NCBI GenBank assembly: GCA_000018565.1
Contig: CP000875.1
Location: 377,199-441,198 of the forward strand
Reading direction: 5' to 3'
DNA length: 64,000 nt
DNA from: Herpetosiphon aurantiacus DSM 785
GTDB taxonomy: Bacteria; Chloroflexota; Chloroflexia; Chloroflexales; Herpetosiphonaceae
Positions 2,268 to 42,249 of this stretch are shown piece after piece. Both the position numbers and the translations under genes were made by a program. The notes beneath the pieces were generated by a model that was given only the letters and a program-made list of their open reading frames with translations, was not told where the DNA came from and ran no database searches. Position 1 is the first letter of the stretch. The number at the start of each line of letters is the position of its first letter.

Positions 2268-2283
2268 TTTAGAAGGGCTTGGC

Positions 2284-3132: not shown

Positions 3133-3724
3133 GCGCCGTCGCAGCCACTGCTGAATCCCAATGGTGATCAATCGCTTGATCGATTAAGCCTTGCAGATTG
3201 GGGCTAAGGCTGCTTGGTTGTGCTCGCAAATGGTCGAGCGCATTGGCCAAAGCCACGATTTGGGCACTACGGGCTGGATATTTGCTGCCACGTGGAAAAC
3301 CTGTGCCATCAATCCGTTCGTGATGCTCAGCCACTAAGGGAATGAGCAAATGCAGCGTGGGATAAGCATGTAAAACATCAAGGCTTTCGTTGACATGCTG
3401 TTGATAGAGCGCAACTTCCCAATGTGGGCTACCTGGCGGTGGGCAAAACAGCAAGCTTCGTGGCATGCGGGTTTTGCCACAATCATGCAACAGTGCTGCC
3501 AACCAAATCTGCTGCCGTTCATAGGTTGGTACACCCAAACTATGGCTCATATGCCAAGCCATGTGGCCAACCCGCAGCGAATGTTGATATAGTTCATGCG
3601 AATGGCGAGCGATCGAATTTAAGATCAAATGTGCGTCGTAGGGTAATTCGGGTGAGTTTGGCATCAGGGCTGCAATGTCACGCGGGATGGAGTGCCAAAA
3701 TTCAGGAAAGCTTGTTGTGTCCAT
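3092..3724 (-). CDS. Stand-alone HD-GYP-like domain protein (putative cyclic-di-GMP phosphodiesterase)
   Basis: 'LLHDCGK' HD motif and 'HHERIDGTGFP' (HHExxDGxGYP-like). GAGGAG RBS before the ATG at 3724. The 3' end overlaps the convergent MTase gene by 41 bp. Confidence 0.7.
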   Translation of the reverse strand: MDTTSFPEFWHSIPRDIAALMPNSPELPYDAHLILNSIARHSHELYQHSLRVGHMAWHMSHSLGVPTYERQQIWLAALLHDCGKTRMPRSLLFCPPPGSPHWEVALYQQHVNESLDVLHAYPTLHLLIPLVAEHHERIDGTGFPRGSKYPARSAQIVALANALDHLRAQPSSLSPNLQGLIDQAIDHHWDSAVAATALSAWQQTKLAEVG

Positions 3725-3743
3725 GCCGCGTTCTCCTCTTCAA

Positions 3744-4133
3744 TTAAAGCATCCCTTTGCTTGATTCGATGTTGCCCCATTGCCAAGCGGTGTTGAGTGG
3801 CGCGGTTTGCAGTTGGTGTGTCATCGTAATACCTTCGATATCGCCCCATTGCCAAGCGGTGTTGAGTGGCGCGGTTTGCAGTTGTTGGGTGACGGTAATG
3901 CCTTCGATGTCGCCCCATTGCCAAGCAGTATTGAGTGGGGCAGTTTGCAGTTGTTGGGTGACGGTAATGCCTTCGATATCGCCCCATTGCCAAGCAGTGT
4001 TGGCGGCGGCTGGTGTACCAAATTGGGGTGTTTGGCTGCTTGTGAGGGCAGTGTAAACAAAACTGACAAAAATCAGGCCGAAGGTTACGAAGGCGAGAGC
4101 GATGCGGCGGCTAATCGTTGATGAATTGTACAC
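3744..4133 (-). CDS. Small secreted/membrane-anchored protein with 23-aa tandem repeats (NTAWQWGDIEGITVTQQLQTAPL)
   Basis: The ORF track extends to 4229, but an AGGAGG RBS followed 6 nt later by GTG at 4133 gives a start just before the hydrophobic segment IALAFVTFGLIFVSFVYTAL. The C-terminal part is four copies of a 23-aa repeat. Confidence 0.55.
   Translation of the reverse strand: MYNSSTISRRIALAFVTFGLIFVSFVYTALTSSQTPQFGTPAAANTAWQWGDIEGITVTQQLQTAPLNTAWQWGDIEGITVTQQLQTAPLNTAWQWGDIEGITMTHQLQTAPLNTAWQWGNIESSKGML
3775..4012. repeat. 69-bp tandem repeat, about 3.5 copies, inside a CDS
   Basis: Units starting 3775, 3844, 3913 and 3982 ('ccccattgccaagc(g/a)gt(g/a)ttgagtgg...gcagttg...ccttcgat(a/g)tcg') with few mismatches. 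Confidence 0.85.
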
Positions 4134-4345
4134 TGGGAGCCTCCTAAGCTGTATCAATTTTGGTCTGGATACAGCTTCGCTTTCGCAGTGCGACAACTCC
4201 GTGAATGGCATGCGACAGGTATGCGACAATTATTAAGTTGTTATTGAGTTGTTAGGTTTTTGTTGACTACTAAAAATTAAAAAAATCAGCCATGGTGCAG
4301 CGAACTACACACATGACTGATCGATTTAAGCCGAATAATTTTAAT

Positions 4346-5554
4346 TTATTGGCGGTTTAGTTGCCTCTGCCGTAATAACACCAGCATTGGCCATAAACAG
4401 CAACTTGCTGCCACAAACGCCGCTGGGAGTCCCATGCGACTAGCGATTAAGCCAATGATCGGGCCGCCCAGAATCTGGCCAAAGGCATCAGCTTGGCTAT
4501 TGATCGAAATAATTGTCGCACGGCTGCGACTTTCAATCAGCCGATTGAGCCAAGCACTATACAGCGGCTGAATGCTTTGACGTAGCATGCGAATGAGCAT
4601 AATCCAAAATAAGGCTATAGCAAATTGTTGGGTGAGCGCTAAACCAAGCAAGCCTGCTGCCAACAAGCCATATTGCCAGCGTAACAGCCAAATACTGCGC
4701 TCGGTGGTGTTGCTGGCTAAGCGTTTGATCACGATAACTGCCACCAAACTAGCCAAGGTTCCCAGTGCGGCGATTGCACCAAACCAGCTAACTGGCTGGA
4801 GATCAAGCCATGTTGGTAGGCCAATATTGTTGAGCAAGTGCGCTTCCCACAGCCGATCGTAGCCTTCAGAAGCGGCTCCGGCGATGGCACTCATCACCAT
4901 AATACTCAATAATACTGGTTGTCCTCGTACCGCTTGCCAACCATGGCCGAGGGTTGCGCCGAAGCGGCCCCAACTTTGGCGTTCAGCAGCTGGCGCTGGG
5001 CTAAACTGGGTTTCTGGCATAAACCAGCGAATGCTGATCGCTAAACCAACCAAAGCGAGGCCACCACCAACGATTGGCCAAACCAAGCCAATAGTTGCCA
5101 ACGCCACCCCCAGCCCGATGCCAAGCAAACTGGCGATGCTGTTGAGTTGGGCGGCCTTGAGAAACAACGCTTCAACCACTTCAACTCCGAGTTCATCGGT
5201 GATCCAAGCTTCGGTCGCGCCGCTCATGAGGGTATAACCCAAGGCCCAAACAACTTGCGCTAACAAACTGCCAACAAAACTGCCCAGCCAAACCTCGCTG
5301 AGCGCTCCCAAGCCCAAAAAGGCTACTCCCAACACGACCGACAATCGCCGACTATAGACATCGGCAACCACACCCGTGGGAATTTCTAAGGCGAAGGCGG
5401 CAGCCTCAAGCATTGTGCCAACTAAAACCAATTGCAATGGATCAAGCTGGAGCACTTGAATTCGATAGAGCATTGAGGCGGTAAAAATACAACTTAAGAG
5501 CAGTCGAGTACCAAACGATAAAACCAAATAGCTAAAACGCGCTTGCGGTTGCAC
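4346..5554 (-). CDS. MFS transporter
   Basis: About 12 predicted TM segments with two 6-TM halves and MFS-like loops. The ORF-track start is TTG directly abutting the RBS; a GTG two codons in (GCAGGAG + 6 nt) is more plausible. Confidence 0.8.
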   Translation of the reverse strand: MQPQARFSYLVLSFGTRLLLSCIFTASMLYRIQVLQLDPLQLVLVGTMLEAAAFALEIPTGVVADVYSRRLSVVLGVAFLGLGALSEVWLGSFVGSLLAQVVWALGYTLMSGATEAWITDELGVEVVEALFLKAAQLNSIASLLGIGLGVALATIGLVWPIVGGGLALVGLAISIRWFMPETQFSPAPAAERQSWGRFGATLGHGWQAVRGQPVLLSIMVMSAIAGAASEGYDRLWEAHLLNNIGLPTWLDLQPVSWFGAIAALGTLASLVAVIVIKRLASNTTERSIWLLRWQYGLLAAGLLGLALTQQFAIALFWIMLIRMLRQSIQPLYSAWLNRLIESRSRATIISINSQADAFGQILGGPIIGLIASRMGLPAAFVAASCCLWPMLVLLRQRQLNRQ

Positions 5555-5819
5555 ATGCAACTCCTGCTAAAAAAATTCAGCCCAGCTGGCTGAGCCGCAG
5601 CGCGATTACTCCCATTGACCATTAATTGACCTTTCGGGGCTATCCTTGCTGTTGCTCAACCCGAACAATGCCAGCAGCAGTTGATAGTGTTTGCATAAAT
5701 TGCCTCCAAATCAAAACAATAGCTGGTTTATACCAAGTTTTGGCGGGCTTGGCCTCGGTCTTAGGGCACATCTCCAACACAACGCTAACGTAGCAAGCTT
5801 CTCGTGGTAGGCATGGCTA

Positions 5820-5828
5820 TGCTACAAT
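5820..5828 (+). promoter_or_regulatory. Candidate extended -10 (TGcTACAAT) upstream of htpG
   Basis: TGnTACAAT at 5820-5828, about 50 nt before the htpG ATG. No convincing -35 and no CIRCE element found. Confidence 0.3.
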
Positions 5829-5878
5829 CGGCCTAGCGGTTTAAGCCCAATTAAGCGTTTTATAAGGAGTAGCGACCT

Positions 5879-7753
5879 ATGGCTGAGCAACACGATGTTG
5901 CCAATGAGCGCGAACAGTTTCAATTCCAGGCTGAAATCCAACAAGTTTTGCATATTCTGATTCACTCGCTGTATACCCACCGCGAGATTTTTGTGCGCGA
6001 ATTAATCTCGAATGCTTCCGATGCCTTGAATCGGGTGCAATTTGAGATGTTGACCAACCAAGATGTGCGCGACCCCGAGCTTGAATTGGCGATCACGTTG
6101 GAAGCCGATAAAGATGCGCGGATCATTCGGATCAGCGATACGGGTATCGGCATGACCCGCGATGATATGATCAAGAATTTGGGCACGGTGGCGCAATCTG
6201 GCGCGAAAGCCTTTTTGCAAAAGTTGGGCGAAGCCAACCCAACCAACAGCAGCGAAATTATTGGTCAATTTGGCGTAGGCTTCTACTCGGTGTTTATGGC
6301 TGCCGATGAAGTGCGGGTCACCTCGCTGTCGTATCAGCCCGATGCAACTGCTTGGCGCTGGACATCGCGCGGCGAAGCAACCTACACCTTGGAAGCAGCC
6401 GAACGCAGCGAACGCGGCACGACGATCGAAATTGTGCTCAAAGAAGATGCCGAAGAATATGCCGAACGCTGGAAACTTGACCAAATTGTGCGCCAACACT
6501 CCAATTTTGTGGCCTTCCCAATTTATTCGGCTGAGGGCGACGAAAAGAAAGTGCTCAACCAACGCACGGCGCTTTGGCGCAAGCAGCCACGCGAAGTCAC
6601 CCAAGAAGAATATAACGATTTCTATCGCCAAACCACGATGGATTTCAACGAGCCATTGAGCACAATTCACATTAGTACCGATGCTCCGGTCGATTTGCAC
6701 GCAATTTTGTTCTTGCCCGCCAAACGTGAGCAAGGCATGATGCGCCAAATTCCTGATCCAGGTTTGAAACTTTATTCGCGCAAGGTGCTGATCCAAGAGC
6801 GCAACGAAGAATTGTTGCCCAAACATCTGCGCTTTGTCCAAGGTGTGGTCGATTCGGAAGATTTGCCGTTGAATGTCTCGCGTGAAACCGTGCAAAGCAG
6901 CGGCACATTACGCCAAATTGCCAAAATTGTGACCAACAAAATTACCAAAGAAATTGAAACCTTGGCCGAAAACGATGCCGAAAAGTTTGCTGACTTCTGG
7001 CGTGAATTTGGGCCATATTTCAAAGAAGGCTTGGTTACCGATCCTGGCACGCGCAGCCAAATTGAGCCACTATTGCGCTTCCACTCGACCAGCGGCGAGG
7101 GCTTGACCAAGCTCAGCGAGTATGTTGAGCGCATGAAGGAAGGCCAAGAAGATATTTATTATGTGATTGCCGACAACGTGGAAACTGCCCGCCGTTCGCC
7201 ACATCTCGATTATTTCAACGAACGCGGCTACGAAGTGCTGTTGATGCATGAAACGATTGATAGCTTTGTCATCTCCAGTTTGCGCGATTTCCAAGGCAAA
7301 AAATTGCGCTCAGTCGATGATGCCGATATTGCGGGCGACGATGTTGAGCTAGAAGGCTCGCTCTCAGCAGCAACGCTTGGCCAACTGGGCGACCGCATCA
7401 AAGAATTATTGGGCGAGCAAATCAGCGAAGTGCGTGGCTCGAAGTTGCTGCGCAGCAACCCTGTGCGTTTGGCCGCGCCTAGCGACGATTTTGGCCGCGA
7501 TATGGATCGCATTCGGCGTATGATGGGTCAAGAATATAGCGTTCCTAGCCGAATTCTAGAACTCAACCCACGCCACGCGATTGTGCACAACTTGGCCGCC
7601 TTGCTCGATGAGCCAGATCAAGCCGAATTGTTCGAGGTTGCGGTGCAACAATTGTATGGCACGGCTTTGTTGGGCGAAGGCTTACACCCCAACCCCAGCG
7701 AGTTGATCAGCGGTGTCCATGCCTTGATCGCTGCCGCTACCAAAAAACAATAA
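5879..7753 (+). CDS. htpG: Molecular chaperone HtpG (Hsp90)
   Basis: 624 aa. N-terminal GHKL ATPase signature 'YTHREIFVRELISNASDA' and 'GQFGVGFYS'. Full-length Hsp90 architecture. AAGGAG RBS. Confidence 0.95.
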   Translation: MAEQHDVANEREQFQFQAEIQQVLHILIHSLYTHREIFVRELISNASDALNRVQFEMLTNQDVRDPELELAITLEADKDARIIRISDTGIGMTRDDMIKNLGTVAQSGAKAFLQKLGEANPTNSSEIIGQFGVGFYSVFMAADEVRVTSLSYQPDATAWRWTSRGEATYTLEAAERSERGTTIEIVLKEDAEEYAERWKLDQIVRQHSNFVAFPIYSAEGDEKKVLNQRTALWRKQPREVTQEEYNDFYRQTTMDFNEPLSTIHISTDAPVDLHAILFLPAKREQGMMRQIPDPGLKLYSRKVLIQERNEELLPKHLRFVQGVVDSEDLPLNVSRETVQSSGTLRQIAKIVTNKITKEIETLAENDAEKFADFWREFGPYFKEGLVTDPGTRSQIEPLLRFHSTSGEGLTKLSEYVERMKEGQEDIYYVIADNVETARRSPHLDYFNERGYEVLLMHETIDSFVISSLRDFQGKKLRSVDDADIAGDDVELEGSLSAATLGQLGDRIKELLGEQISEVRGSKLLRSNPVRLAAPSDDFGRDMDRIRRMMGQEYSVPSRILELNPRHAIVHNLAALLDEPDQAELFEVAVQQLYGTALLGEGLHPNPSELISGVHALIAAATKKQ

Positions 7754-18709: not shown

Positions 18710-18864
18710 CGTTTGTTCCTAATTATTAAAAAATACATAGTTGTTAATAAAGTTTTAAAGGCGAATAGGACTGTTGGCCTATGGTCAATCCAGCGCTAGC
18801 ATAGCACGATCAACCCATTATTTCCATGGAACTGCCACGTTTGCAGTCAAGAGGAGTGTCTAGT

Positions 18865-20607
18865 ATGGTTCTTCGAAGGATGATGTTTGTTTTGCTGGTT
18901 ATTTTTAGCTTGAGCACTGTTTCGGCAACGTCGCTGGAAACTCCCTCTGCTGAGCCACTCGACGCAGCAAGCCCCGCTAGCCCAGCCGCCACCAATGCCT
19001 ACACCATGCGAGCTGGATTCCCTGCAACCAAGCCGAATGGTTCATATTTTTCATCACCAACCGTCGTTGATCTATTTAAAGATGGTTCGCCCGAGATTCT
19101 TTCAGCAGATGCAACTGGTTGTATTTGGGGTTACAACATTTATGGTCAATTGTTGCCTGGCTTTCCCTGGATGACTGGCGGTGCGTGTGCCAATACCCCG
19201 CGGATCAATGGTTCGTTGGTGGTCGCTGACATTAACGAAGATGGCTTATTGGAAATTGTGGTTGGCACACGCGGCAAAGGCACAAGCGTTGGTCAGCGCG
19301 GCAAGGTCATTGTTTATCAACGCAATGGAGCCATTTTGAGCGGTTGGCCCAAAGAAATGGAATGGGCCTACATCACCAACGGCAACTTCCCCGAGGTGGT
19401 GCATGTCGCTGTTGACGATATTATTGGTGATAGCAAACTTGAGGTGATTGCGACTACCACGAATGAGGCGGGTAGTAATACTGATTATGCACCCAATGTG
19501 CATGCGTGGTATTACACGGGGAATGTCGTTACTGGCTACCCCAAAAGCTCCGATAAAGGCTCGGGCATTTGGGGCCACCCCGCCTTGGCCGACCTCGACA
19601 ATAACGGCAAATCGGAGATCTTCGTTGGCCGCGATGAACTCTATTTCTATCGCTATAAAAACGATGGAACCCAATATGCAGGCTGGCCAATTCAGACCTA
19701 TACCCATGTCAACCAAACGACTTGGAATGTTCACGATTATATTGAGTTTACCCGCTCTGGCCCAGCTATCGCCGATTTAGATAATGATGGCAGTTACGAG
19801 GTGATTGCAGCAGGTAAAGTGCGGACTCCAGACGGCGATCCGCATAACAACTACGACCCGCAAAGTGCTAGTGCGGTTTTCGTAACTGAGCCAGATGGTA
19901 CTCGCCGCCCTGGCTGGACTGATGCCAAACGCGCTGGCGCACCGTTGGATGTCAACTTTACCCCCAATAATCCGATTGTTGTCGCCGATTTGGATGGCAA
20001 TGGTGAAAAGGAATTTGTAGTTACCTTCGATGATGGTACAATTCGCGCCTATCGCGAAAACGGCACGCAAATCTGGTCGTATTTCTATGCTGAGGAACCA
20101 GTCCAAGGTGCGCCAACCCGCAAAGTATTTGGTAGCGAAGTCGTCATTGCCGATGTTACGGGTGACCGCAAGCTAGATATTGTCTTTGGTACGTATTCAT
20201 TCGACCGACTTTATGCGGGGATTGTCGGGTTGTATGCCCTCGATGCCCGCAATGGAGCCTTGCATTCGGGCTTTCCACTGAGTTTGCCCAATGAAGGCAC
20301 GGCTAGCGATAACAGTGCTGGCTCGCAGAAAGGGATTCAAGCCGCCCCAACTATCTCCGATATCGATAATAACTGCTATGTCGAAATTTTGGCCCACAGT
20401 CGGGCGGGCAATATTTATGTTTGGGAAACCCTAGGCCGCAATTTGCCTGAATTAATGCCTTGGCCGATGAGCCGCCAGAACTTACAGCGCACTGCGTGGG
20501 TGCAAAATCCACCTGAACCACGCCAACACGTATTTGCCCCCGAGCAAATTCAAGGCGGTGATTTCAATGTCTATTTGCCAATGACCCGCATGGGTTGCGA
20601 TTTCTAG
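18865..20607 (+). CDS. Secreted FG-GAP/VCBS-repeat beta-propeller protein
   Basis: Start chosen at the ATG at 18865 (AGAGGAG RBS; signal peptide MVLRRMMFVLLVIFSLSTVSA). Repeated Ca-binding-like loops 'DINEDGLLEIVVG', 'DLDNNGKSEIFVG', 'DLDNDGSYEVIA', 'DLDGNGEKEFVV'. Confidence 0.75.
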   Translation: MVLRRMMFVLLVIFSLSTVSATSLETPSAEPLDAASPASPAATNAYTMRAGFPATKPNGSYFSSPTVVDLFKDGSPEILSADATGCIWGYNIYGQLLPGFPWMTGGACANTPRINGSLVVADINEDGLLEIVVGTRGKGTSVGQRGKVIVYQRNGAILSGWPKEMEWAYITNGNFPEVVHVAVDDIIGDSKLEVIATTTNEAGSNTDYAPNVHAWYYTGNVVTGYPKSSDKGSGIWGHPALADLDNNGKSEIFVGRDELYFYRYKNDGTQYAGWPIQTYTHVNQTTWNVHDYIEFTRSGPAIADLDNDGSYEVIAAGKVRTPDGDPHNNYDPQSASAVFVTEPDGTRRPGWTDAKRAGAPLDVNFTPNNPIVVADLDGNGEKEFVVTFDDGTIRAYRENGTQIWSYFYAEEPVQGAPTRKVFGSEVVIADVTGDRKLDIVFGTYSFDRLYAGIVGLYALDARNGALHSGFPLSLPNEGTASDNSAGSQKGIQAAPTISDIDNNCYVEILAHSRAGNIYVWETLGRNLPELMPWPMSRQNLQRTAWVQNPPEPRQHVFAPEQIQGGDFNVYLPMTRMGCDF

Positions 20608-31908: not shown

Positions 31909-34101
31909 ATGCGATTACGGATTGGTTTAATCATCACGCTTTTGTTGATGATCACCGTTGGAAAAACCCTGCAAAACCCCAGGGATGTAGCCCAAGCCCT
32001 GTCCCAAACCCCTGATCAAACCACAATTCCGCAAGGATTTTCCCGCATCCAAGAGCAAGAATTTAACGACTTACCACTCAATGCCAATCTGTTGGTTGGC
32101 AGCAGTTTGGTGGTGCGCGGCTCAATTCAGCAAACTGATGTTGATTATTTTGCGCTTGATTTAACCGCTGGTCAGCGTTTAGCAATGGCCACCATTACTA
32201 GCGCCAGCGTCGCCTCCAGCGATACAACCATCCATCTCTATGCTTTCGATGGCGTAAATAGTGATCTGATCGAAACCGATTTGAGCGATGGCATTCTGAG
32301 CAACAGTTCCTCGGTGATCAGTTCTCAGCCAATTACGCTGACCGGAACCTACCTGATTAAAGTTGAAGGTGGCACTGCAACCACGGTTATTCAGCCCTAC
32401 GACTTATATGTGCGAGTGCTGAGCGAAACTGCCAGCGAACAAGAACCTAACGACGAAGTTGCCCAAACCATCGATGCTCAAGCGGCAATCAGCGGGGTAG
32501 TTTCAACCACCAACGATCTTGATCGCTATCAATTTAATGTTAATCCTGGCGACACAATTTTTGCCACCGTTGATTTTGATCCAGAGCGTGATGGCATAAC
32601 TTGGAATGGCTTTCTCGATATTGGCATGATCAACAATACCTATCTTCGGGCTAACGATAGTAATAGTGTTTCACCCAACGCTGAAGCCAATGTGATCACC
32701 GTTCAACAAGCTGGCACTTACGAAATTCGCATTGGCTCACTACTTGAGATCGGTGTGGATGCTAGTTATTTGGCGCAAGTTACGATTATTCCCGCCGCTA
32801 TTCAGGCCAACTGCCAAACCGTGATGAGTTCAGGTGCACCACAGAATATTGGCCCACAAGCTGGAATAATTCAATCGACATTAACCGTCACCCAAGCAGC
32901 CAACATTGCCGATATTGATGTATTGCTCAATTTAGAGCATAGCTTCATGCCCGATTTGGATGTAACCCTGACTGCCCCCGATGGTAATGTGATTAACCTC
33001 TTCACCGATATTGGCAATGTGCAGCAACCTACCGTTAATCTCGTGATTGATCAACAAGCTGCCTTACCACTTGGCACGTATAACGTTTTGAGTGGCACGC
33101 ATTTTGGTCCGAAATGGAATAGCAGCCTCGATTGGTTGGCTGGACAACAAGCCCAAGGCCAATGGATACTGACGATTTATGATGATACCGACCAAAATGC
33201 TGGTGTATTAAATGGTTGGGGCTTGCGGATTTGTGGCATGCCCACGCCAAGCGATTGTCCAGTCGGGATGTCGCGCAGCGTGCTTTATAGCAGCCAATTT
33301 GAGGCCGATAATGGCGGGCTTACTCCAGGCCCATTTGACCAAGAATGGGTTTGGGGTAATCGTAATAGCCCACCAATTGTTGGTGCGTATAGCGGCGAAA
33401 ATAGCTGGAATACCAATTTAACCGGAAATTATCCTAATAGTACCCGCATGCAATTGCTATCACCGCAAATTGACTTAACCAATGTTACGGGGCCAATTTA
33501 TGCAAGTTGGTATCAACGCTATCAGCTTGATAATAGTGTTAACGATTTTTATCAGGTAACGGCCCATAAGCCCCAAGTTGAACAGATTCTCTTTCGCCAT
33601 CAAAGTGCTGCAATGCAAATTAACCTCGGAAATCCTTTGGTTACGCTTGATCAAAGTACAGGTTGGGGACTTCAACGCCATGATCTAAGCGATTTTGCTG
33701 GCACTTCACTCTATTTAACCTGGGATTTCGGTAGTGATGAGGTAGCAAGTTTTGCTGGGATTGCGCTTGATGATGTGGAAATTACTGGTTGTATTGATCC
33801 AGCTCAAATCACGCCAACGAATACGCCAACGCCAAGCAACACGCCAACCCTAACATCAACTCCTAGCAATACGCCAACGCCAAGCAATACGCCAACGGCG
33901 ACCGCAACACCAACCCAAACCTTAACGCCAACTGAAACGCCAACGCCAAGCAATACGCCAACGGCGACCGCAACGCCGACCCAGACCGAAACGCCAACCG
34001 CGACTGAAACACCAAGTATCACCCCAACGAGTACACCAAGTGTAACGGCAGATCCAAGCTTAATCCCGGTCTATCTGCCTTTAGTCAGTAAAGATAATTA
34101 A
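31909..34101 (+). CDS. Secreted multidomain protein: signal peptide - PPC - PPC - proprotein-convertase P-domain - MAM-like domain - PT-linker - conserved C-terminal tail (paralog 1 of 5)
   Basis: GGAGG RBS. PPC signatures 'EQEPNDE..A..I.A...ISGV....D.DRYQFNV..GDT'. P-domain '[29 protein letters not shown]...W.L.I.DD...AG.L..W.L.IC'. MAM-like '[12 protein letters not shown]'. Linker [13 protein letters not shown].... Tail '[12 protein letters not shown]'. No peptidase catalytic domain. Confidence 0.8.
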
Positions 34102-34242: not shown

Positions 34243-36393
34243 ATGCGTCTACGGATTGGGTTTATCGGCCTCATGATCGCTTTACTTGGGTTAACTGGTA
34301 GTTTACGGGCTTTCAAGCCAGTTCAAGCTGCCCCAAGTAATCCAACTACCGCTCAAATTGCTCAAGCGAATGTCCCGCAGGGGGCAGTCCGCGTTAAAGA
34401 ACAGGAAAGCAACAATACGACTGCCACCGCCAACGCGATCATGTCCAGCAGTACCCTAATTCGCGGGAATATCTGGAATGGTGATGTTGACTTCTATAGC
34501 ATTGAATTAGCCGCTGGCGATCGCCTGACCGCTGCAACCATGAGCGCGGCTTCAGCCTCTGGCAACAACGATACGGTATTAACCTTTTTTGCGCCTGATG
34601 GTACAACCGTGATTGAAACCGATGATAACGATGGCTCACTTGGCGGCAATGCCTCGGTGATTAGTTCGGCTCCGGTGACCCAAACCGCTACCTACTATCT
34701 GCGGTTAAGTAGTACTAGTACCAACCAAGTTCGCTACTACGACTTCTATGTGCGGGTGTTGAGCGAAGCCGCCACTGCTGAAACAGAGCCAAATGATCTT
34801 TTGACAACCGCCCAAGTGTTGCCTACCAGCGGCACAATTTCGGGGGTCTTATCGGCTACAACCGACCTCGATTACTACCAGCTTAACTTGAATGCTGGTG
34901 ATACGATCTTTACCAGCCTCGACCTCAACCCTGAGCGCGATGGCATTGTTTGGAACGGACGACTTGGGATCGGCGCGTTTAATGGCTTTACTTTAGTTGT
35001 TGATGATACCAGTGTAGTCTCACCAAATGCTGAAGCCCATTTTATGACCGTCAAGACGAGTGGTACCTACTATGTGCTGGCCTCAACGACGGCTGCAAGT
35101 ATTCCGGCTGAAGCAACCTATTTGTTGGGTGTCACAGTGTTCCCTGCCGAGCAGCAAGCCAATTGTACAACCTACACCAGCGCTGATGTTGCCAAGACCA
35201 TCCCAACGACTACCAGCTTTATTACCTCAACCTTGACTGTTCCCGACAACTTTATCATCGCTGATCTTGATGTCAGTATCGAACTGACTCATACCAATAT
35301 GCCCGACCTCGATGTTCAACTCCAAGGGCCAGATGGCAATGTTGGAGGGCTATTTACCGATATTAGCAATAATACCCAGACCACGATGAATATCGATCTT
35401 GATGATGAAGCCGCAATTCCAATTGGACTTTTCGCGATTGTCTCGGGCATCCGTTATATTCCAGAGTTGAATTATCGCCTCGATTGGTTCGATGGTGGGC
35501 GATCGGCTGGCACCTGGACTCTCTTGATTCACGATGATACTGCTGCCAACGGTGGAACATTGCAAAATTGGAGCATCACGCTGTGTGCCGCGCCACCAGC
35601 AAGCTGCCCCGATGGTATGAGCATGAGCACAATCACGAGCACTGATTTTGAAGCCAATGATGGTGGCTTTACCCATAGCGGAACTGCTGATTCATGGGAA
35701 TATGGCGCACCAAGCGCTGCTCCATTGATCGGTAGCTATAGTGGGGCTAATAGCTGGAAGACCAACCTTGACGGAACTTATTCGGTCAGTAGTATTGCCA
35801 ATCTCTTCTCGCCATCAATTAGTATTCCCAATGTGACTGGCCCTGTCTACATCCAATGGCAACAACGCTACCAGATGGAAAGTGCTAATTTTGATCATTA
35901 CACGGCCTCGGTTGGTACAGGCGTTGTGACCAAAACCTTGTATGAATTTGATGCAGCAACCATGACCAATGCAGTTGGTAACCCAAGCGTAACCTTCCAA
36001 GAAAGCACAGTTTGGAGTCGCCAGCTCTACGATATTAGCGAGTTCAAGGGTCAATCAATCCAGGCCTTGTATCACCTAGATACTGATAGTTCGGTTCAAT
36101 TGGGTGGTATCGCGATCGACGATTTCCAAATTATGGCCTGTGACGGTGTGGCAGCAACCGCGACCCCAACCGAAGCACCAACCGCTACCAGCACACCAAC
36201 CAACACGCCAACTAACACACCAACCAACACGCCAACTAACACGCCAACCAATACACCGATTATCACGATTACCCCAAGCAATACGCCGACGGCTACGGTT
36301 ACCCCAAGTAACACGCCAACCGTTACCCCAAGCGTGACCGCTGGGCCAACCATGATTCCGGTTTATATGCCATTAGTCGGTAAAGACCAATAG
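34243..36393 (+). CDS. Paralog 2 of the secreted PPC-PPC-P-domain-MAM-like-PT-linker family
   Basis: Same architecture as paralog 1. Signal peptide '[23 protein letters not shown]'. Tail '[12 protein letters not shown]'. Confidence 0.8.
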
Positions 36394-36547: not shown

Positions 36548-38629
36548 ATGCGTTTACGGATTGGGTTTATCGGTCTTATGATCGCCCTGCTCGGATTAAC
36601 GGGCGGCTTGCGTAGTTTAACCAGCGTTCAAGCAGTACCCAACGCCCCTCAAAATCTCGCAGCCCACCAACTTAATACTCCTCAAGGATTTGCGCGGATT
36701 AGCGAACAAGAATCAAACGATACTCCTGCCATGGCCCAGCCAATCATTGGCGATTCAGCCGTCATTCGCGGCTATATCACTGCCAATGATAGCGATTTCT
36801 TGGCAATTCCACTTACTAGCGTCCAACGGGTGGTCGCAGCAACTATGACCTCGGCTTCAGCCACAAATATTGTCGATTCGATCCTGACTCTCTATCAACC
36901 TGATGGGACAACTGTCTTGGAGCTTGATAATGACGATGGGATTTTTGGCGTGAGTTCTTCGGTTATCAGCTCAGCGATTATCACGACTACTGCAACCTAC
37001 TATCTCAAGGTCACCGCCAACAATACGACGAATAAAATTTATTATTACGATTTATATGTACGGATTTTAACCAGCGAACCAATTGTCGAACAAGAGCCAA
37101 ATGAGCCAGCTCAAATGCTGCCAGCAGCTGGGATTGTCAGTGGGATTATTAGCCAAACTGGCGATATTGATCGTTTTCAGCTGGCCTTGAATCCAGGCGA
37201 TACGTTGTTTACAACCCTCGATATAGACCCCGAACGTGATGGCATTAGCTGGAATGGGCGGGTAACGATCGGGCCATTTGGGCCAAATATCATCACAATC
37301 AACGATGGCAATGCGGTTTCGCCCAATGCCGAATCGGCCCAATTAACCGTTAAAGAAGCTGGTAATTATATAATCAGCGTCGATAACCTATCAGCAATTA
37401 ATAATTCGACCTACATCCTACAAGTGCTGATCATCCCAGCCGAAGAGCAAGCCAATTGTCAGACCTATATGAGCACCGATGTCAATAAAACAATTCCACC
37501 TGATCCTGGTATGATCACGTCGGGATTAAATATTCCTGACAATCTCTTGATTGGCGATTTAGACTTGATTATTCAGCTTGATCATACCTTTATACCTGAT
37601 CTCGATGCGCAATTGACTACGCCTGATGGGAATATCCTTGGGCTATTCAGCGATATTGGAATCACGACTAGTGCCCCAGCGAGCATGAACCTGATTATTG
37701 ATGATGAAGCAGCCTTACCATCATTTCAAGCGCTTAGCGTCAATGGATTGATCAACTTGCCTGAGGCAGCCTATCGGATGAGTTGGTTTGATGGCCAACG
37801 TACCCAAGGCAATTGGACATTAACGCTCTATGATGATGCAACTGGCGATGGGGGCACATTACTCAATTGGGGCTTGCAGGTTTGCGCTGCGCTGCCACCC
37901 GCCGATTGTCCTGATGGCACGGTTAGCAGCACCATCTACAGCACCGATTTTGAAGCAAATGATGGGGGCTTTACCCATAGCGGAACCACTGATCCATGGC
38001 AATATGGTCAACCAAACTCAGCGCCAATTGTGGGCAGTTATAGTGGGAGCAATAGTTGGAAAACCAATTTAACTGGCAATTATCCCGCTTTAATGAATGC
38101 CAACCTAACGTCGCCGGCCATTGATCTTAGCGGTGTAGTTGGGCCAATTCAGGTGCAATGGCAACAACGCTATCAAATCGAATCAGCAGCATTTGATAAT
38201 TATGCAGCACAGATTGTTGGTAGTAGCAACCAAGTACTCTTTCAGCATCGCGATGGCGTAATGCGTGAATCAGTTGGCAATCCGCTGGTTACGGTTCAAG
38301 CAAGCACTGGTTGGAGCCGCCAACTGCATGATATTAGTAGCTTTGTGGGTCAGTCGATTCAACTGCAATTCCATATGGATACTGATTCCAGCGTTGAACT
38401 GGCGGGTGTCGCCATTGATGATGTGCTGGTAACTGGTTGTGTTGTGCTCCCTACGGCCACCCCAACCGAAACGCCAACTAACACACCGACCAATACCCCC
38501 ACCGAAACCCCAACCAATACGCCGACGGTTACGGTTACGCCAAGTAATACACCAATCGTTACCCCAAGCGTGACGGCTGGGCCAACGACGATTCCAGTTT
38601 ATCTGCCGTTGGTTAGTAAAGGCGAATAA
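36548..38629 (+). CDS. Paralog 3 of the secreted PPC-PPC-P-domain-MAM-like-PT-linker family
   Basis: Same architecture. Tail '[12 protein letters not shown]'. The leader 36394-36547 is nearly identical to 38630-38784. Confidence 0.8.
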   Translation: MRLRIGFIGLMIALLGLTGGLRSLTSVQAVPNAPQNLAAHQLNTPQGFARISEQESNDTPAMAQPIIGDSAVIRGYITANDSDFLAIPLTSVQRVVAATMTSASATNIVDSILTLYQPDGTTVLELDNDDGIFGVSSSVISSAIITTTATYYLKVTANNTTNKIYYYDLYVRILTSEPIVEQEPNEPAQMLPAAGIVSGIISQTGDIDRFQLALNPGDTLFTTLDIDPERDGISWNGRVTIGPFGPNIITINDGNAVSPNAESAQLTVKEAGNYIISVDNLSAINNSTYILQVLIIPAEEQANCQTYMSTDVNKTIPPDPGMITSGLNIPDNLLIGDLDLIIQLDHTFIPDLDAQLTTPDGNILGLFSDIGITTSAPASMNLIIDDEAALPSFQALSVNGLINLPEAAYRMSWFDGQRTQGNWTLTLYDDATGDGGTLLNWGLQVCAALPPADCPDGTVSSTIYSTDFEANDGGFTHSGTTDPWQYGQPNSAPIVGSYSGSNSWKTNLTGNYPALMNANLTSPAIDLSGVVGPIQVQWQQRYQIESAAFDNYAAQIVGSSNQVLFQHRDGVMRESVGNPLVTVQASTGWSRQLHDISSFVGQSIQLQFHMDTDSSVELAGVAIDDVLVTGCVVLPTATPTETPTNTPTNTPTETPTNTPTVTVTPSNTPIVTPSVTAGPTTIPVYLPLVSKGE

Positions 38630-38784: not shown

Positions 38785-40912
38785 ATGCGTTTCAGGATTG
38801 GGTTTATCGGCCTTATGCTTGTCGTACTTGGGTTAACTGGTAGTTTGCGGGCTTTCAAGCCAGTTCAAGCCGCCCTCAGTAATCCAAATACCTCACGAAT
38901 TGTTCAAACGCATGTGCCGCAAGGTGCAGCTCGGATCAATGAACAAGAAAGTAATAATACACTTGCAACGGCTAACCCGATCATGGCGAGTAGGGCGATC
39001 ATTCGTGGGATTATCTGGAGTGGTGATGTTGATATGTATCGGATTGAATTAGCAGCAGGCGACCGATTGAATGTCGCGACCATGACTTCCGCTGCAACCC
39101 ATAGCAGCACTGACACCGTACTAAGCCTGTATGCACTCGATGGAACAAGCCTCATTGAATTAGACGATGACGATGGAACATTTGGTAGTCTTTCATCAGT
39201 CATTAGCTCAGTTCCGGTCACCATAACAGGTACATATTATATTCGTATCAATGCGTTCTTGGCTACCGCCCAAGTTCGTTACTACGATTTGTATGTACGC
39301 ATCTTTAGCGAAGCCACCACTGCTGAGCAAGAACCAAATGATGTTGTTGGCACAGCCCAAGTGTTGCCAGCCAGCGGCGCTGTTGAAGGTAGTTTATCCG
39401 CCACGACTGATGTTGATCTGTTTAAATGCTGGCGATACGATTTTTACGAGTATCGACTTTAACCCTGAACGTGATAGCACAAATTGGAATGGAAGCCTCG
39501 GTATTGGACTATTTAACGGTCTTATTTTATTCGCTGATGATAACAGTACTTCGGCTCCGCCGAATGCTGAGGCTCATTTTATGACCGTTAAAAATAGTGG
39601 AACCTATTATGTTGTTGTTTCAACAAGTGCGAGCAGTATTCCGGCTGAGGCAACCTATCTATTAAATGTTACGACCTTTCCTGCCGAGCAACAAGCGAAC
39701 TGCACAACCTACACCAGCACCGATGTTGCCAAAACGATTCCAACCACCACCAGTTTTATCACCTCAACTTTGAGCGTTCCAGATAACTTTATCATTGCCG
39801 ATCTTGATCTAAGCATTCAATTGACCCATAACAACATGCCCGACCTCGATGTCCAGTTGCAAGGGCCAGATGGTAATGTTGGTGGGCTATTTACCGATAT
39901 TGGATCAAATCTTGTGACGATGATGGATCTTGACCTTGATGATGAAACAGGGATCACGATTAACAGCTTTGCGGCTGTAGCTGGGATGAAGTATATTCCT
40001 GAATCTGTCTATCGCCTCAATTGGTTTGACGGTGGTCGCTCAGCCGGCACTTGGACGCTGTTGATTCACGATGATCTCGCTAGCAATGGTGGTACACTCC
40101 AAAACTGGAGTATTACGCTGTGTGCCGCCCCTCCCGCGAGCTGCCCCGATGGTATGAGCATGAGCACAATCACGAGCACCGATTTTGAGGACAATAATGG
40201 TGGTTTTACTCACAACGGAACCGGCGATACATGGGAGTATGGTGCACCAATCGCCGAACCACTGATCGGCAGTTACAGCGGGGTTAATAGTTGGAAAACT
40301 AATTTGGATGGAACCTATAGTGCTAGCAGTGTTGCCGATCTCTTCTCACCATCAATCAGTATTCCGAATGTGGCTGGCCCAGTCTATTTGCAATGGCACC
40401 AACGCTATCAGATGGATACGGCTGGATCTGATCGCTATAGCGCATCAATTGGTGCTGGGGCTGTGACCAAAACCCTGTATGAGTTTGAGTCAGCCGTAAT
40501 GACCAATCCAGTTGGCAATCCAAGCGTGACCTTCCAAGAAAGCACAGTTTGGAGTCGTCAGTTACACGAAATTAGCGAGTTCAAGGGTCAATCGGTTCGG
40601 GTTCAATATCACCTTGATAGTAATGCTACAACGAATTTGGGTGGCGTTGCAATCGACGATTTTCAAATTATGACATGTGATGAGGTGATCGCAACCCCAA
40701 CCAACACCCCAACTGCAACTCCAACCAACACCCCAACTGCAACTCCAACCGCAACCCCAACCGCAACCCCAACCGCAACCCCAACCAACACCCCAACCAA
40801 TACGCCAACGGTTACGGTTACGCCAAGTAATACGCCAACCGTTACCCCAAACGTGACGGCTGGGCCAACGACGATTCCGGTCTATCTGCCACTAGTCGTT
40901 AGAGGCGAATAG
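38785..40912 (+). pseudogene. Paralog 4/5 of the same family, disrupted by a +1 frameshift in an A-run (39424-39426); the two ORF fragments are 38785-39462 and 39251-40912
   Basis: N-terminal and C-terminal parts align to the other paralogs in different frames. Removing one A from 'tttaaatgct' restores '...[23 protein letters not shown]...'. Tail '[12 protein letters not shown]'. Confidence 0.65.
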
Positions 40913-41142: not shown

Positions 41143-42249
41143 ATGAGTAATCCCAAACGTACCGTCGGCATCGGCGGATTGATTATTGCCGCCCTCGCAC
41201 TTTCAGGGGTTGGTGGTGGTTTAGTCGGTGGTGTCGCAGGCTATCGCTTAGCCCAAGTTGATCAAACGGCAACGGCAGTGGCGGTCACGCCAACCAGCGC
41301 CACCCAACAAACGACCGATAATCTGACTGCGCAACCAGTTGTTGCCAGCACGAATGATGCAGTTGTCCAAACCGTTGCCAAGGCCTCACCAGCAGTCGTA
41401 AAAATTATTAGTACGGTGGTTGGCGGTCAGGCCAGCGGTTCAGGCGCAATTATCAATGAAGATGGCTATATCATCACCAATAATCATGTGGTCGAAGGTC
41501 AAAGTCGCTTGCAAGTAATTTATTCTGATGGAACCAGCCACAATGCCGAGTTGATCGGCACTGATGCTTTTTCGGATATCGCCGTGATTCGGGTGCTCGA
41601 TGCCGTGCCAGCCACAATTTCCTTAGGCGATTCGGATAGTTTGCAGCCTGGCGAAACGGTCGTGGCCATTGGCAGTCCGCTTGGTAAATTCCAAAATAGT
41701 GTGACGGTTGGAGTGGTCAGCGCTCTTGACCGCACAATTGATAGCATGGAAGGCCTAATTCAAACTGACGCAGCGATTAACCATGGCAATAGTGGCGGCC
41801 CACTGATCAACCTCAAAGGCGAAATTGTTGGGATCAATACGTTGGTTGTGCGCGGTGATATTGGTAGTATCGATGAAGCTCAAGGCCTAGGTTTTGCTGT
41901 CCCATCAAATATTGTGCGCGAAGTCAGCGATGCTTTGATTGCCAATGGCCAAGTTATTCGACCATATATAGGCATTCGCTACGAATTGCTTTCGCCCGAA
42001 ACCGCCGAACTGGGGATTGCCAATGATAAAGGTGCTTTCGTGACCAATGTTGATGAAGGTACACCTGCTCGGCGAGCTGGCATTAGCCGTGGCGATATTA
42101 TTCTCGCAGTCAACGGCGAAGAAATTACTCAACGCCACTCATTGCAGCGCCTGCTGTTGCAATATAAACCAGGCGATACCGTAACGGTCACAATCGAGCG
42201 TAATGACCAACAACAGGAAGTGCAAATTACCCTCGCTGAACGCCCATAA
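41143..42249 (+). CDS. htrA: HtrA/DegP-family trypsin-like serine protease with C-terminal PDZ domain
   Basis: N-terminal TM anchor. Catalytic His region 'ITNNHVV', Asp 'DIAVIRV', Ser 'GNSGGPL'. PDZ-like 'GAFVTNVDEGTPARRAGISRGDIILAVNGEEI'. Confidence 0.9.
   Translation: MSNPKRTVGIGGLIIAALALSGVGGGLVGGVAGYRLAQVDQTATAVAVTPTSATQQTTDNLTAQPVVASTNDAVVQTVAKASPAVVKIISTVVGGQASGSGAIINEDGYIITNNHVVEGQSRLQVIYSDGTSHNAELIGTDAFSDIAVIRVLDAVPATISLGDSDSLQPGETVVAIGSPLGKFQNSVTVGVVSALDRTIDSMEGLIQTDAAINHGNSGGPLINLKGEIVGINTLVVRGDIGSIDEAQGLGFAVPSNIVREVSDALIANGQVIRPYIGIRYELLSPETAELGIANDKGAFVTNVDEGTPARRAGISRGDIILAVNGEEITQRHSLQRLLLQYKPGDTVTVTIERNDQQQEVQITLAERP

What the first reader, a model, noticed from the sequence alone, without database searches (positions are those of the whole stretch)
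34030..34101. Conserved C-terminal tail 'IPVY(L/M)PLV(S/G/V)(K/R)(D/G)(N/Q/E)' after a PT-linker: candidate undescribed sorting/processing signal
All five paralogs diverge substantially over their domains, yet they end identically. Each has a PT-rich linker, then 'SVTAGPT(M/T)IPVY(L/M)PLV..', then 3-4 polar residues, then stop (34060-34101, 36352-36393, 38588-38629, 40871-40912). The layout is a linker followed by a short conserved C-terminal motif. That resembles exosortase/archaeosortase-type (PEP-CTERM, PGF-CTERM) or LPXTG-type signals, which also follow Thr/Pro-rich spacers. This tail, however, lacks a TM helix and basic tail, so it is not one of the known classes. It could be a recognition motif for a dedicated processing enzyme or for cell-surface attachment in this Chloroflexi lineage.
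Basis: seen in the sequence. Interest (0 to 1): 0.7.

Follow-up and report, generated by a model that had tools for sequence, protein, structure and literature searches.

The report
YLP-box C-terminal tail on secreted proteins
The conserved tail is real and belongs to the "YLP-box", an eight-residue C-terminal motif found on hundreds of unrelated exported Chloroflexota proteins; NCBI curators already list it as a putative sorting signal, but how it works and which enzyme reads it are unknown.

Summary
The tail IPVY[LM]PLV[SGV][KR]xx-stop is present at the stated coordinates. It occurs on four tandem genes, not five, and one of them is frameshifted. The genes encode exported all-beta binding proteins (PPC, P-domain, MAM-like). 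Each ends in a 50-90 residue disordered Pro/Thr linker plus the tail.

The motif is not undescribed. NCBIfam holds two models named "YLP-box putative sorting motif" (NF050076, NF053834). Three of the four tails score like canonical YLP boxes.

A scan of 185,579 species genomes for V-Y-L-P-L-[VIM]-L-R-stop gave 113 hits. Of these, 104 are Chloroflexota, almost all at the very end of long, mutually unrelated ORFs with signal peptides (64 BLAST clusters, 68 Pfam families). The motif is almost exclusively end-proximal. Homologs in other phyla carry IPTL-CTERM, MYXO-CTERM or transmembrane tails in the same slot. The YLP box also follows "choice-of-anchor Q" domains. A fifth YLP-like tail sits on an unrelated FG-GAP protein in the window.

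The sorting or retention reading is therefore well supported comparatively. No experiment, paper or candidate enzyme was found. Verdict: a member of a curated but mechanistically uncharacterised motif class. Interest is moderate.

The parts
31909..34101 (+). Paralog 1 (730 aa): signal peptide, PPC, P-domain, MAM-like domain, 90-aa PT linker (33793-34062), YLP tail
34063..34098 (+). Tail 1, [12 protein letters not shown]. The YLP box is VYLPLVSK, with 2 residues after it before the stop.
   Evidence: As an isolated tail it scores NF050076 14.2 bits and NF053834 13.7 bits (cutoff 10).
34243..36393 (+). Paralog 2 (716 aa), same architecture, 71-aa PT linker (36142-36354)
36355..36390 (+). Tail 2, [12 protein letters not shown] (Met for Leu, Gly at +3). 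This is the divergent copy.
   Evidence: No NCBIfam hit.
36548..38629 (+). Paralog 3 (693 aa), 50-aa PT linker (38441-38590). In the AF2 model the body (residues 50-633) is folded all-beta, and residues 634-693 are disordered.
38591..38626 (+). Tail 3, [12 protein letters not shown]
   Evidence: NF050076 14.7 bits and NF053834 13.8 bits.
38785..40912 (+). Paralog 4, split into two ORFs (38785-39462 and 39251-40912) by a frameshift near 39427. It is a pseudogene or a sequencing error. 65-aa PT linker (40679-40873).
40874..40909 (+). Tail 4, [12 protein letters not shown]
   Evidence: NF050076 scores 15.2 bits as a tail (cutoff 15) and 10.8 bits on the full-length ORF. NF053834 scores 13.0 bits.
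18826..20607 (+). Unrelated exported FG-GAP/VCBS repeat protein (593 aa) ending in a YLP-like tail, NVYLPMTRMGCDF (20566-20604)
   Evidence: 37 of 120 homologs end in YLP-type tails. The tail of homolog P0125 passes both NCBIfam YLP models. The window's own tail does not hit them.
41143..42249 (+). Downstream membrane-anchored HtrA-type protease (Trypsin_2 + PDZ). Listed as context only; it is not shown to be part of the system.
   Evidence: The gene order is the same in Herpetosiphon sp. NSE202. It is not a recurrent neighbour of YLP genes elsewhere.

Best explanation
The four tails are instances of the Chloroflexota 'YLP box', an ultrashort linear motif with consensus [HY]-[RK]-[VILT]-[YF]-L-P-[LVIFM]-[VIL]-x-[RK] followed by 0-5 residues and the stop. 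It sits at the extreme C-terminus of Sec-exported proteins. In these Herpetosiphon paralogs a non-catalytic binding body (two PPC/collagen-binding-like domains, a P-domain and a MAM-like jelly roll) is exported through a cleavable signal peptide. A 50-90 residue Pro/Thr-rich disordered stalk, probably glycosylated, separates the body from the YLP box. Most likely mechanism (inferred, not shown): after export, a Chloroflexota-specific protein factor recognises the YLP box in a sequence-specific way. This factor would be a processing or transpeptidating enzyme, or a receptor. It keeps or places the protein on the cell envelope. The YLP box would thus play the role that LPXTG, PEP-CTERM, IPTL-CTERM or MYXO-CTERM signals play elsewhere, but without a transmembrane helix. 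The residues after the basic position would be dispensable or discarded. Shown: the motif, its end-proximal position, its lineage range, its presence on exported unrelated proteins, and its interchangeability with known anchors. Inferred: retention or sorting as the function, recognition by a protein, and any cleavage.
For: Curated class: NF050076 and NF053834, both 'YLP-box putative sorting motif', hit tails 1, 3 and 4 with the same scores as canonical VYLPLVLR tails. The positive control L015 scores 16.9 bits.

Generality: the genome-collection scan for VYLPL[VIM]LR-stop gave 113 loci, against about 35 expected from uniform composition. 104 are labelled Chloroflexota, and about 100 lie at the end of long ORFs. 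The non-Chloroflexota hits are mostly 12-42 codon ORFs or not stops.

Unrelated carriers: 109 YLP ORFs fall in 64 BLAST clusters. Fifty complete proteins share only Met1 and the tail, with 8% mean column identity, and cover 68 Pfam families, all of extracytoplasmic type.

Export: 44 of 57 have signal-peptide-like N-termini by a crude rule. The window paralogs start [20 protein letters not shown]|A.

Position: 20 of 22 non-selected motif matches in 501,644 ORF residues lie within 4 residues of the C-terminus.

Anchor slot: homologs of the same protein carry IPTL-CTERM (TIGR04174, 23.9 bits), MYXO-CTERM (TIGR03901, 21.7 bits) or TM+RR tails instead. The YLP box directly follows choice-of-anchor Q domains (NF041518, 70-74 bits). 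A Bacteroidota homolog of YLP proteins ends in a T9SS-like CTD.

Need for tethering: a DppA-like solute-binding protein without a lipobox and a triple cupredoxin with a cleavable signal peptide both end in YLP boxes.

Sequence-specific recognition: Pro is 82/82, Leu 71/82 and Tyr/Phe 78/82.

Linear motif: AF2 gives pLDDT below 50 and no secondary structure for the linker and tail.

Peptide-level selection: synonymous codon differences in the tail.
Against: There is no experimental evidence anywhere, and no paper was found. The curated name itself says 'putative'. No candidate enzyme or receptor was found. The neighbours of 113 loci are generic families: two-component systems, kinases, STAND regulators, beta-helix proteins. 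The window and its syntenic loci hold no sortase, exosortase, rhomboid or CPBP gene. Without a TM segment there is no obvious way to hold the substrate at the membrane for processing. On full-length proteins only paralog 4 gave a sub-threshold HMM hit (10.8 bits against a cutoff of 15). Tail 2 (YMPLVGK) gives no hit at all. The signal-peptide rule used is crude. The genome scan sampled only one codon-restricted form of the motif.
Confidence: 0.6

Rival explanations
1. Enzyme-free physical anchor. The hydrophobic heptad VYLPLVL, flanked by basic residues, partitions by itself into the outer leaflet of the membrane or binds an anionic wall or sheath polymer. It would resemble the short C-terminal membrane-targeting sequences of MinD or FtsA (from my knowledge of those systems, not tested here).
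For: The extended consensus is basic-hydrophobic(7)-basic. K is 9.4x and R 5.2x enriched just before the V, and R/K is at +4. There is no TM helix, and no enzyme was found.
Against: Invariant Pro and near-invariant Leu and Tyr indicate recognition of a specific sequence rather than generic hydrophobicity. Seven residues with a central Pro are not amphipathic and would bind lipid only weakly (my estimate from hydrophobicity scales, not computed with a tool). The window tails lack the upstream basic residue (T-I-P instead).
Confidence: 0.15
2. Processing or quality-control tag. The tail would be a C-terminal recognition element for a PDZ-containing protease (HtrA, encoded just downstream, or a Ctp/Tsp-type enzyme). 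It would serve maturation, activation or turnover of exported proteins rather than localisation.
For: An HtrA gene with a PDZ domain lies immediately downstream (41143-42249), and this order is conserved in Herpetosiphon sp. NSE202. PDZ domains bind C-terminal peptides (established knowledge).
Against: The adjacency is only genus-level synteny. No Trypsin/PDZ family recurs next to YLP genes in 113 other loci. The distance from the motif to the free C-terminus varies from 0 to 5 or more residues, and the last residues are polar or basic, which is unlike classical PDZ ligands. This reading does not explain why the motif replaces membrane anchors in homologs.
Confidence: 0.1
3. Translation- or translocation-pacing peptide. 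A C-terminal arrest-like sequence would slow termination or release of large exported proteins.
For: The requirement to be close to the end. A Pro-containing conserved peptide on large secreted proteins.
Against: There is no precedent for hundreds of substrates per lineage. It does not explain interchange with anchor domains. It is purely speculative.
Confidence: 0.03
4. Plain paralog inheritance, or a conserved DNA element (terminator or repeat) overlapping the gene ends, with no function for the peptide.
For: Within the four paralogs alone the tail is no more conserved than the best domain segments.
Against: The same motif ends unrelated proteins in the same window (FG-GAP protein) and in at least four Chloroflexota classes. 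The tail codons differ synonymously, and DNA similarity stops at the stop codon.
Confidence: 0.02

Closest known systems
NCBIfam NF050076 (sort_motif_YLP) and NF053834 (ultrashort_CTERM): 'YLP-box putative sorting motif-containing protein'
   Same: Same motif, same extreme C-terminal position, same phylum. Tails 1, 3 and 4 score 13-15 bits, like canonical VYLPLVLR tails.
   Different: The Herpetosiphon form has Ser/Gly/Val at +3 and two extra polar residues. It has Ile-Pro upstream instead of the usual [HY][RK]. Tail 2 (YMPLVGK) and the FG-GAP tail are not detected, and the full-length proteins fall below the cutoffs. The class itself has no demonstrated function.
LPXTG / sortase cell-wall sorting signals (TIGR01167)
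   Same: A C-terminal signal after a Pro/Thr-rich wall-spanning spacer on Sec-exported surface proteins. A near-invariant Leu-Pro dipeptide forms the core.
   Different: No T-G, no ~20-residue hydrophobic helix and no Arg/Lys-rich tail. There is no LPXTG_anchor hit on the window proteins. No sortase was seen nearby.
Exosortase/archaeosortase-type and related signals: PEP-CTERM, IPTL-CTERM (TIGR04174), MYXO-CTERM (TIGR03901), PGF-CTERM
   Same: They occupy the same slot in homologs of the very same protein. They share the formal three-part layout: signature motif, hydrophobic stretch, basic residue(s).
   Different: In the YLP box the hydrophobic stretch is 3 residues and the basic cluster is one residue, so it cannot span a membrane. 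The intramembrane enzymes of those systems act on TM substrates.
Ultrashort C-terminal targeting signals in other biology (CaaX box, PTS1 -SKL, KDEL)
   Same: Sequence-specific end-proximal peptides of 3-8 residues read by a soluble or membrane receptor or enzyme. The Herpetosiphonaceae FG-GAP variant has a Cys 0-3 residues from the end, which looks like a CaaX box.
   Different: Those are eukaryotic, cytosolic-side systems. There is no sequence similarity. The comparison comes from memory and is not a test.

Membership tests
YLP-box putative sorting motif (NCBIfam NF050076 / NF053834) | HMM score at or above the curated cutoff (15 bits for NF050076, 10 bits for NF053834) | tested here: inconclusive
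   As isolated 30-32 aa tails, the scores (NF050076/NF053834) are: paralog 1 14.2/13.7, paralog 3 14.7/13.8, paralog 4 15.2/13.0. All three pass NF053834, and paralog 4 also passes NF050076. Paralog 2 gives no hit. On full-length proteins only paralog 4 is reported, at 10.8 bits, below the cutoff. A canonical control scores 14.9/13.4 and L015 scores 16.9.
YLP-box putative sorting motif (NCBIfam NF050076 / NF053834) | Motif lies at the extreme C-terminus, within a few residues of the stop | tested here: met
   Two residues follow the basic position in all four tails. The same '+2' layout was seen 9 times among 82 YLP tails, and extensions of 0-5 residues are common. 20 of 22 unselected matches are within 4 residues of the end.
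YLP-box putative sorting motif (NCBIfam NF050076 / NF053834) | Carrier is an exported protein (N-terminal signal peptide) | tested here: met
   The paralogs begin MRLRIG(F/L)I..LLGLTG..VQA-A. AF2 predicts an N-terminal helix at residues 2-17 followed by a disordered segment. 44 of 57 other YLP proteins are signal-peptide-like by a crude rule. No dedicated signal-peptide predictor was available.
YLP-box putative sorting motif (NCBIfam NF050076 / NF053834) | Chloroflexota lineage | tested here: met
   The closest homologs are Herpetosiphon spp.. The window's FG-GAP protein is 100% identical to a Herpetosiphon protein on a 6,346,587-bp contig. 104 of 113 scan hits are Chloroflexota.
YLP-box putative sorting motif (NCBIfam NF050076 / NF053834) | Actually directs sorting, anchoring or processing | not testable with these tools
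   The only evidence is comparative: interchange with IPTL-CTERM, MYXO-CTERM and TM tails, and position after choice-of-anchor Q domains.
LPXTG sortase signal | LPXTG pentapeptide, then a hydrophobic TM segment, then a positively charged tail | tested here: not met
   The sequence after L-P is L-V-[SGV]-[KR]-x-x-stop. There is no T-G and no TM segment. TIGR01167 is not reported at E<=10.
PEP-CTERM / IPTL-CTERM / MYXO-CTERM / PGF-CTERM (exosortase, archaeosortase, myxosortase targets) | Signature motif, then a ~20-residue TM helix, then an Arg-rich cluster; a matching HMM | tested here: not met
   No such HMM hits the window proteins. Only 6 residues follow the Pro. The same models do detect the control homologs P0013 and P0078.
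T9SS C-terminal domain | A ~70-100 residue folded beta-sandwich CTD | tested here: not met
   The last 60 residues are disordered linker plus a 12-residue tail. There is no C-terminal Por_Secre_tail hit.

The most novel reading that the evidence does not exclude
The YLP box may be the recognition element of a still undiscovered protein-sorting pathway in Chloroflexota that needs no transmembrane helix. A dedicated enzyme would read the end-proximal [YF]-L-P-h-h-x-[RK] peptide after export, clip it, and attach the protein covalently to a wall, sheath or lipid component. The Herpetosiphonaceae '..R-x-G-C-x(0-3)' extension would be a lipidation- or thioester-type sub-variant.
Probability: 0.3. 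Interest if true: 0.8.

Novelty: new member of a known kind. Interest (0 to 1): 0.4.

Why it matters
Chloroflexota are a large, environmentally dominant phylum, mostly filamentous, whose cell envelope is poorly understood. A motif of only about 8 residues marks a substantial, diverse set of exported proteins: adhesin-like proteins, beta-helix enzymes, cupredoxins, solute-binding proteins and proteases. It stands in for classical anchors. If it is a true sorting signal, it would be the shortest prokaryotic C-terminal sorting signal known and the first without a membrane-spanning segment, which implies unknown machinery. In practice, recognising it improves annotation of surface proteomes in Chloroflexota MAGs. 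It also gives a handle (a peptide bait, or phylogenetic profiling) for finding the machinery. For this specific window the result is more modest: the finding rediscovers a motif class that NCBI curators have already modelled.

Tried and rejected
I re-ran it with CTN Leu codons, so only one codon-restricted form of the motif was sampled.
2. A tail-only profile search of the 5.8-billion protein set was impossible. The max_evalue cap is 10, and a 12-column profile cannot reach that.
3. A 55-aa linker+tail query found 81 word-sharing candidates, none with E<=10.
4. Neighbourhood guilt-by-association for a sorting enzyme in 113 loci found only generic families: histidine kinases and response regulators, Ser/Thr kinases, BTAD-AAA-TPR regulators, and beta-helix proteins.
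5. The downstream HtrA/PDZ protease was considered as a reader of the tail. I rejected it as specific evidence, because the gene order is genus synteny only and the family is not recurrent elsewhere.
6. Literature searches found nothing relevant. The terms covered YLP-box, the YLPLV-type strings, the NCBIfam accessions, ultrashort sorting signals, choice-of-anchor, and Herpetosiphon secretome or proteome.
7. The non-Chloroflexota scan hits were examined. Kangiella, Nitrospira, Bacilli, Flavobacteriaceae and Bacteroidetes hits are 12-42 codon ORFs or TGG (not a stop), so they are chance. The Flaviaesturariibacter hit is antisense inside a real gene. One 5.6-kb contig binned as Hyphomicrobiaceae (L021) has two genuine-looking tandem YLP genes. 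It may be misbinned; this was not resolved.
8. Foldseek on the AF2 model only confirmed that the body consists of binding modules (ColG collagen-binding domains, furin P-domain, neuropilin/CUB/MAM-like). It gave no information on the tail.
Full report
**What is in the window**

Four same-strand tandem genes lie at 31909-34101, 34243-36393, 36548-38629 and 38785-40912. The fourth is split into two ORFs by a frameshift near codon 214, at about 39427. A six-frame scan finds exactly four in-frame copies of the tail.

Each protein starts with a Sec-type signal peptide ([23 protein letters not shown]). Pfam detects a PPC domain, a proprotein-convertase P-domain and an InhA-like MAM domain. An AlphaFold2 model of paralog 3 (pLDDT 81, pTM 0.75) is all-beta from residue 50 to 633. 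Its closest solved folds are ColG collagen-binding domains, the furin P-domain and neuropilin/CUB/MAM-type modules. The body is therefore a non-catalytic binding protein.

After the last Cys comes a linker of 50-90 residues with 58-65% Pro+Thr. AF2 gives pLDDT below 50 and no secondary structure for the linker and tail.

**Is the conservation meaningful?**

Among the four paralogs alone it is only moderately so. They are 45-74% identical. The tail has 8/12 invariant columns, against 9/12 in the best domain windows.

Two other observations settle the question. First, six of the eight IPVYLPLV codons differ synonymously among the copies, and DNA similarity ends at the stop codon. Selection therefore acts on the peptide, not on a DNA element. 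Second, the motif recurs far outside this family, as described below.

**It is a curated motif class**

NCBIfam release 20 contains NF050076 (sort_motif_YLP, 11 positions, cutoff 15 bits) and NF053834 (ultrashort_CTERM, 10 positions, cutoff 10 bits). Both are described as 'YLP-box putative sorting motif-containing protein'.

- On the full-length proteins only paralog 4 was reported, at 10.8 bits.
- On isolated tails the scores (NF050076/NF053834) are: paralog 1 14.2/13.7, paralog 3 14.7/13.8, paralog 4 15.2/13.0.
- These match a canonical VYLPLVLR tail, which scores 14.9/13.4.
- Paralog 2 (YMPLVGK) gives no hit.

Seven literature searches found no paper on the motif. In this library it exists only as database models, and it has no tested function.

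**Generality, lineage and position**

I scanned one genome for each of 185,579 species (596 Gb) for GTN TAY CTN CCN CTN RTN CTN MGN TRR. This encodes V-Y-L-P-L-[VIM]-L-R-stop. The scan returned 113 loci. From uniform base composition I expect about 35 by chance.

- 104 of the 113 are labelled Chloroflexota: Anaerolineae/-ales, Chloroflexia/Chloroflexaceae, Thermoflexia/-ales, Ardenticatenales, Promineifilaceae and Herpetosiphonaceae.
- None is labelled Dehalococcoidia, Ktedonobacteria or Thermomicrobia.
- About 100 hits sit at the very end of ORFs of 100-1,800 codons with unrelated upstream sequence.
- The non-Chloroflexota hits are nearly all 12-42 codon ORFs, TGG rather than a stop, or antisense to a real gene.

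The carriers are unrelated to one another. The 109 YLP ORFs in these loci fall into 64 BLAST clusters. Fifty complete proteins share only Met1 and the tail (8% mean column identity) and match 68 Pfam families. These include DUF11, right-handed beta-helix, FG-GAP, NosD, Calx-beta, cupredoxins, M23 and M4 peptidases, and solute-binding protein family 5. All are extracytoplasmic types. 44 of 57 have signal-peptide-like N-termini by a crude rule.

The motif is end-proximal. Of 22 further matches that the scan had not selected, found in 501,644 ORF residues, 20 lie within four residues of the C-terminus.

**The motif itself**

From 82 tails in two protein families the pattern is as follows:

| Position | Residues (count out of 82) |
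|---|---|
| -1 | V 36, I 18, L 13, T 11 |
| Tyr position | Y 64, F 14, H 4 |
| Leu position | L 71 |
| Pro position | P 82 |
| +1 | hydrophobic |
| +2 | V 35, I 26 |
| +3 | variable |
| +4 | R 35, K 23 |

Between 0 and 5 residues follow the basic position. The window's layout, with two residues after the basic position, was seen nine times. In canonical tails the two residues before the motif are enriched for [HY] (8x and 4.8x) and [KR] (9.4x and 5.2x).

Tails with short polar extensions, such as [21 protein letters not shown] and IYLPLVLRNFP, are common. The Herpetosiphon form is an ordinary variant.

**Evidence that it fills an anchor slot**

The 120 best homologs of paralog 2 share the PPC/P-domain/MAM core but end in different ways:

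- YLP-type tails in Chloroflexota;
- IPTL-CTERM in Acidobacteriota and Thermoanaerobaculia (P0013: TIGR04174, 23.9 bits against a cutoff of 20.5);
- MYXO-CTERM in Polyangiaceae (P0078: TIGR03901, 21.7 bits against a cutoff of 20);
- TM+RR tails (for the HMM scores).

Further points support the same reading.

- The YLP box directly follows choice-of-anchor Q domains (NF041518, 70-74 bits, in L041 and L020). By curation, that domain class precedes interchangeable sorting signals.
- A Bacteroidota homolog of YLP-tailed proteins ends in a T9SS-type CTD-like sequence.
- A DppA-like solute-binding protein without a lipobox, and a triple cupredoxin with a cleavable signal peptide, both end in YLP boxes. 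Both kinds of protein must stay at the cell surface of a monoderm.

**A second, unrelated carrier in the same window**

ORF 18826-20607 is an exported FG-GAP/VCBS repeat protein. It ends in NVYLPMTRMGCDF.

- 37 of its 120 homologs end in YLP-type tails.
- The tail of homolog P0125 passes both NCBIfam models (16.1 and 15.7 bits).
- The window's own tail is too divergent to hit them.

This protein is 100% identical to a Herpetosiphon protein carried on a 6,346,587-bp contig. From memory, that length matches the H. aurantiacus DSM 785 chromosome; I did not verify this. Other exported proteins and lipoproteins in the window lack the tail: the GH26-CBM2 enzyme, the OpuAC lipoprotein and a GH39 enzyme. 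The YLP box therefore marks a subset of exported proteins.

**Search for the machinery**

None was found.

- Herpetosiphon sp. NSE202 has the same gene order, with only two paralogs and the same downstream HtrA (Trypsin_2+PDZ) gene. The window thus shows a tandem expansion from 2 to 4 copies, and the HtrA adjacency is genus synteny.
- Clustering of all neighbours in the 113 loci gave only generic families.
- The window region 8.6-50 kb holds no sortase, exosortase, rhomboid or CPBP gene.

**Mechanism**

My best-supported reading has a confidence of about 0.6. The YLP box is an ultrashort, sequence-specifically recognised C-terminal sorting or retention signal for Sec-exported proteins of filamentous Chloroflexota. 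In these paralogs it is presented at the end of a flexible PT stalk.

- Shown: the motif, its position, its lineage range, its export context, and its interchange with known anchors.
- Inferred: retention as the function, a protein reader (suggested by the invariant Pro and near-invariant Leu and Tyr), and possible clipping.

The rivals are:

| Rival | Confidence |
|---|---|
| Enzyme-free hydrophobic/basic anchor | 0.15 |
| PDZ-protease processing or turnover tag | 0.10 |
| Translation-pacing peptide | 0.03 |
| Mere paralog or DNA-level conservation (refuted) | 0.02 |

**Comparison with known systems and verdict**

The tail works like LPXTG, PEP-CTERM, IPTL-CTERM or MYXO-CTERM signals in that it occupies the same slot and follows the same kind of spacer. 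It fails their defining features: there is no TM helix, no Arg cluster and no HMM hit. It is a member of the curated YLP-box class.

It was reached independently of the curators' guess and is identical to it. The claim that the motif is undescribed is wrong.

- Novelty: new member of a known, curated but uncharacterised kind.
- Interest: 0.4.
- Remaining open question: what reads an 8-residue signal that has no membrane anchor.

Noticed in passing
window 38785-40912 (junction ~39427): The fourth paralog is interrupted by a frameshift near codon 214. Its N-terminal 214 codons and C-terminal 492 codons both align to paralog 2. It is a pseudogene or a sequencing error. The YLP tail is still intact.
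   Followed up: partly
window 18826-20607; P0124-P0168: FG-GAP proteins of Herpetosiphonaceae carry a YLP box followed by a conserved Gly-Cys, 2-3 residues after the basic residue, with 0-3 residues before the stop. Examples are YLPLVRSGCGS, HLPMVRIGCSL and YLPVIHRC. This is a CaaX-like layout that could mean a lipidated or disulfide-linked sub-variant.
   Followed up: partly
P0006, P0008, P0018, P0030, P0039, P0047, P0049 (homologs of the paralogs): Anaerolineae-type homologs end in a different shared tail: P-T-[DN]-V-x-L-x-x-[VI]-[GS]-G-Q, then a TM helix, then RR. No NCBIfam C-terminal sorting model reaches its cutoff on this tail. It may be an uncurated TM-type sorting signal.
   Followed up: partly
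P0073, P0096, P0109 (Herpetosiphon geysericola and H. llansteffanensis orthologs of paralog 1): These end in IHLP[LF]V[IVL]..: His replaces Tyr and there is no basic residue. The NCBIfam YLP models do not detect them. The motif drifts considerably even within one genus.
   Followed up: no
L114 (Herpetosiphon sp. NSE202) versus window 24000-50000: Gene order is conserved, but NSE202 has two paralogs where the window has four. This is a recent tandem expansion in the window's genome.
   Followed up: partly
L015, L025, L059, L060, L065, L077, L095, L113: Small (~95-140 aa) proteins with a 'GQPDAG..GG.Y.L.GGFW' module and a canonical EYKVYLPLVLR tail sit next to 650-735 aa pectate-lyase-like beta-helix proteins. 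This looks like a recurrent two-gene cassette.
   Followed up: no
L021 (5.6-kb contig binned as Hyphomicrobiaceae): This contig has two tandem, genuine-looking YLP-tailed genes in a MAG labelled Alphaproteobacteria. It is probably a misbinned Chloroflexota contig, but this was not checked.
   Followed up: no
L047, ORF 2175-7244: An internal LYLPLVLR lies 743 residues before the end of a 1,690-aa ORF that also ends in a YLP box. This looks like a fusion, or a lost stop, between two tandem YLP genes.
   Followed up: no
The window's FG-GAP protein is in the protein collection at 100% identity. The four paralogs are not: their best matches are 70-74% identity to paralog 2 and 93% to paralog 3 (P0005).
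   Followed up: no
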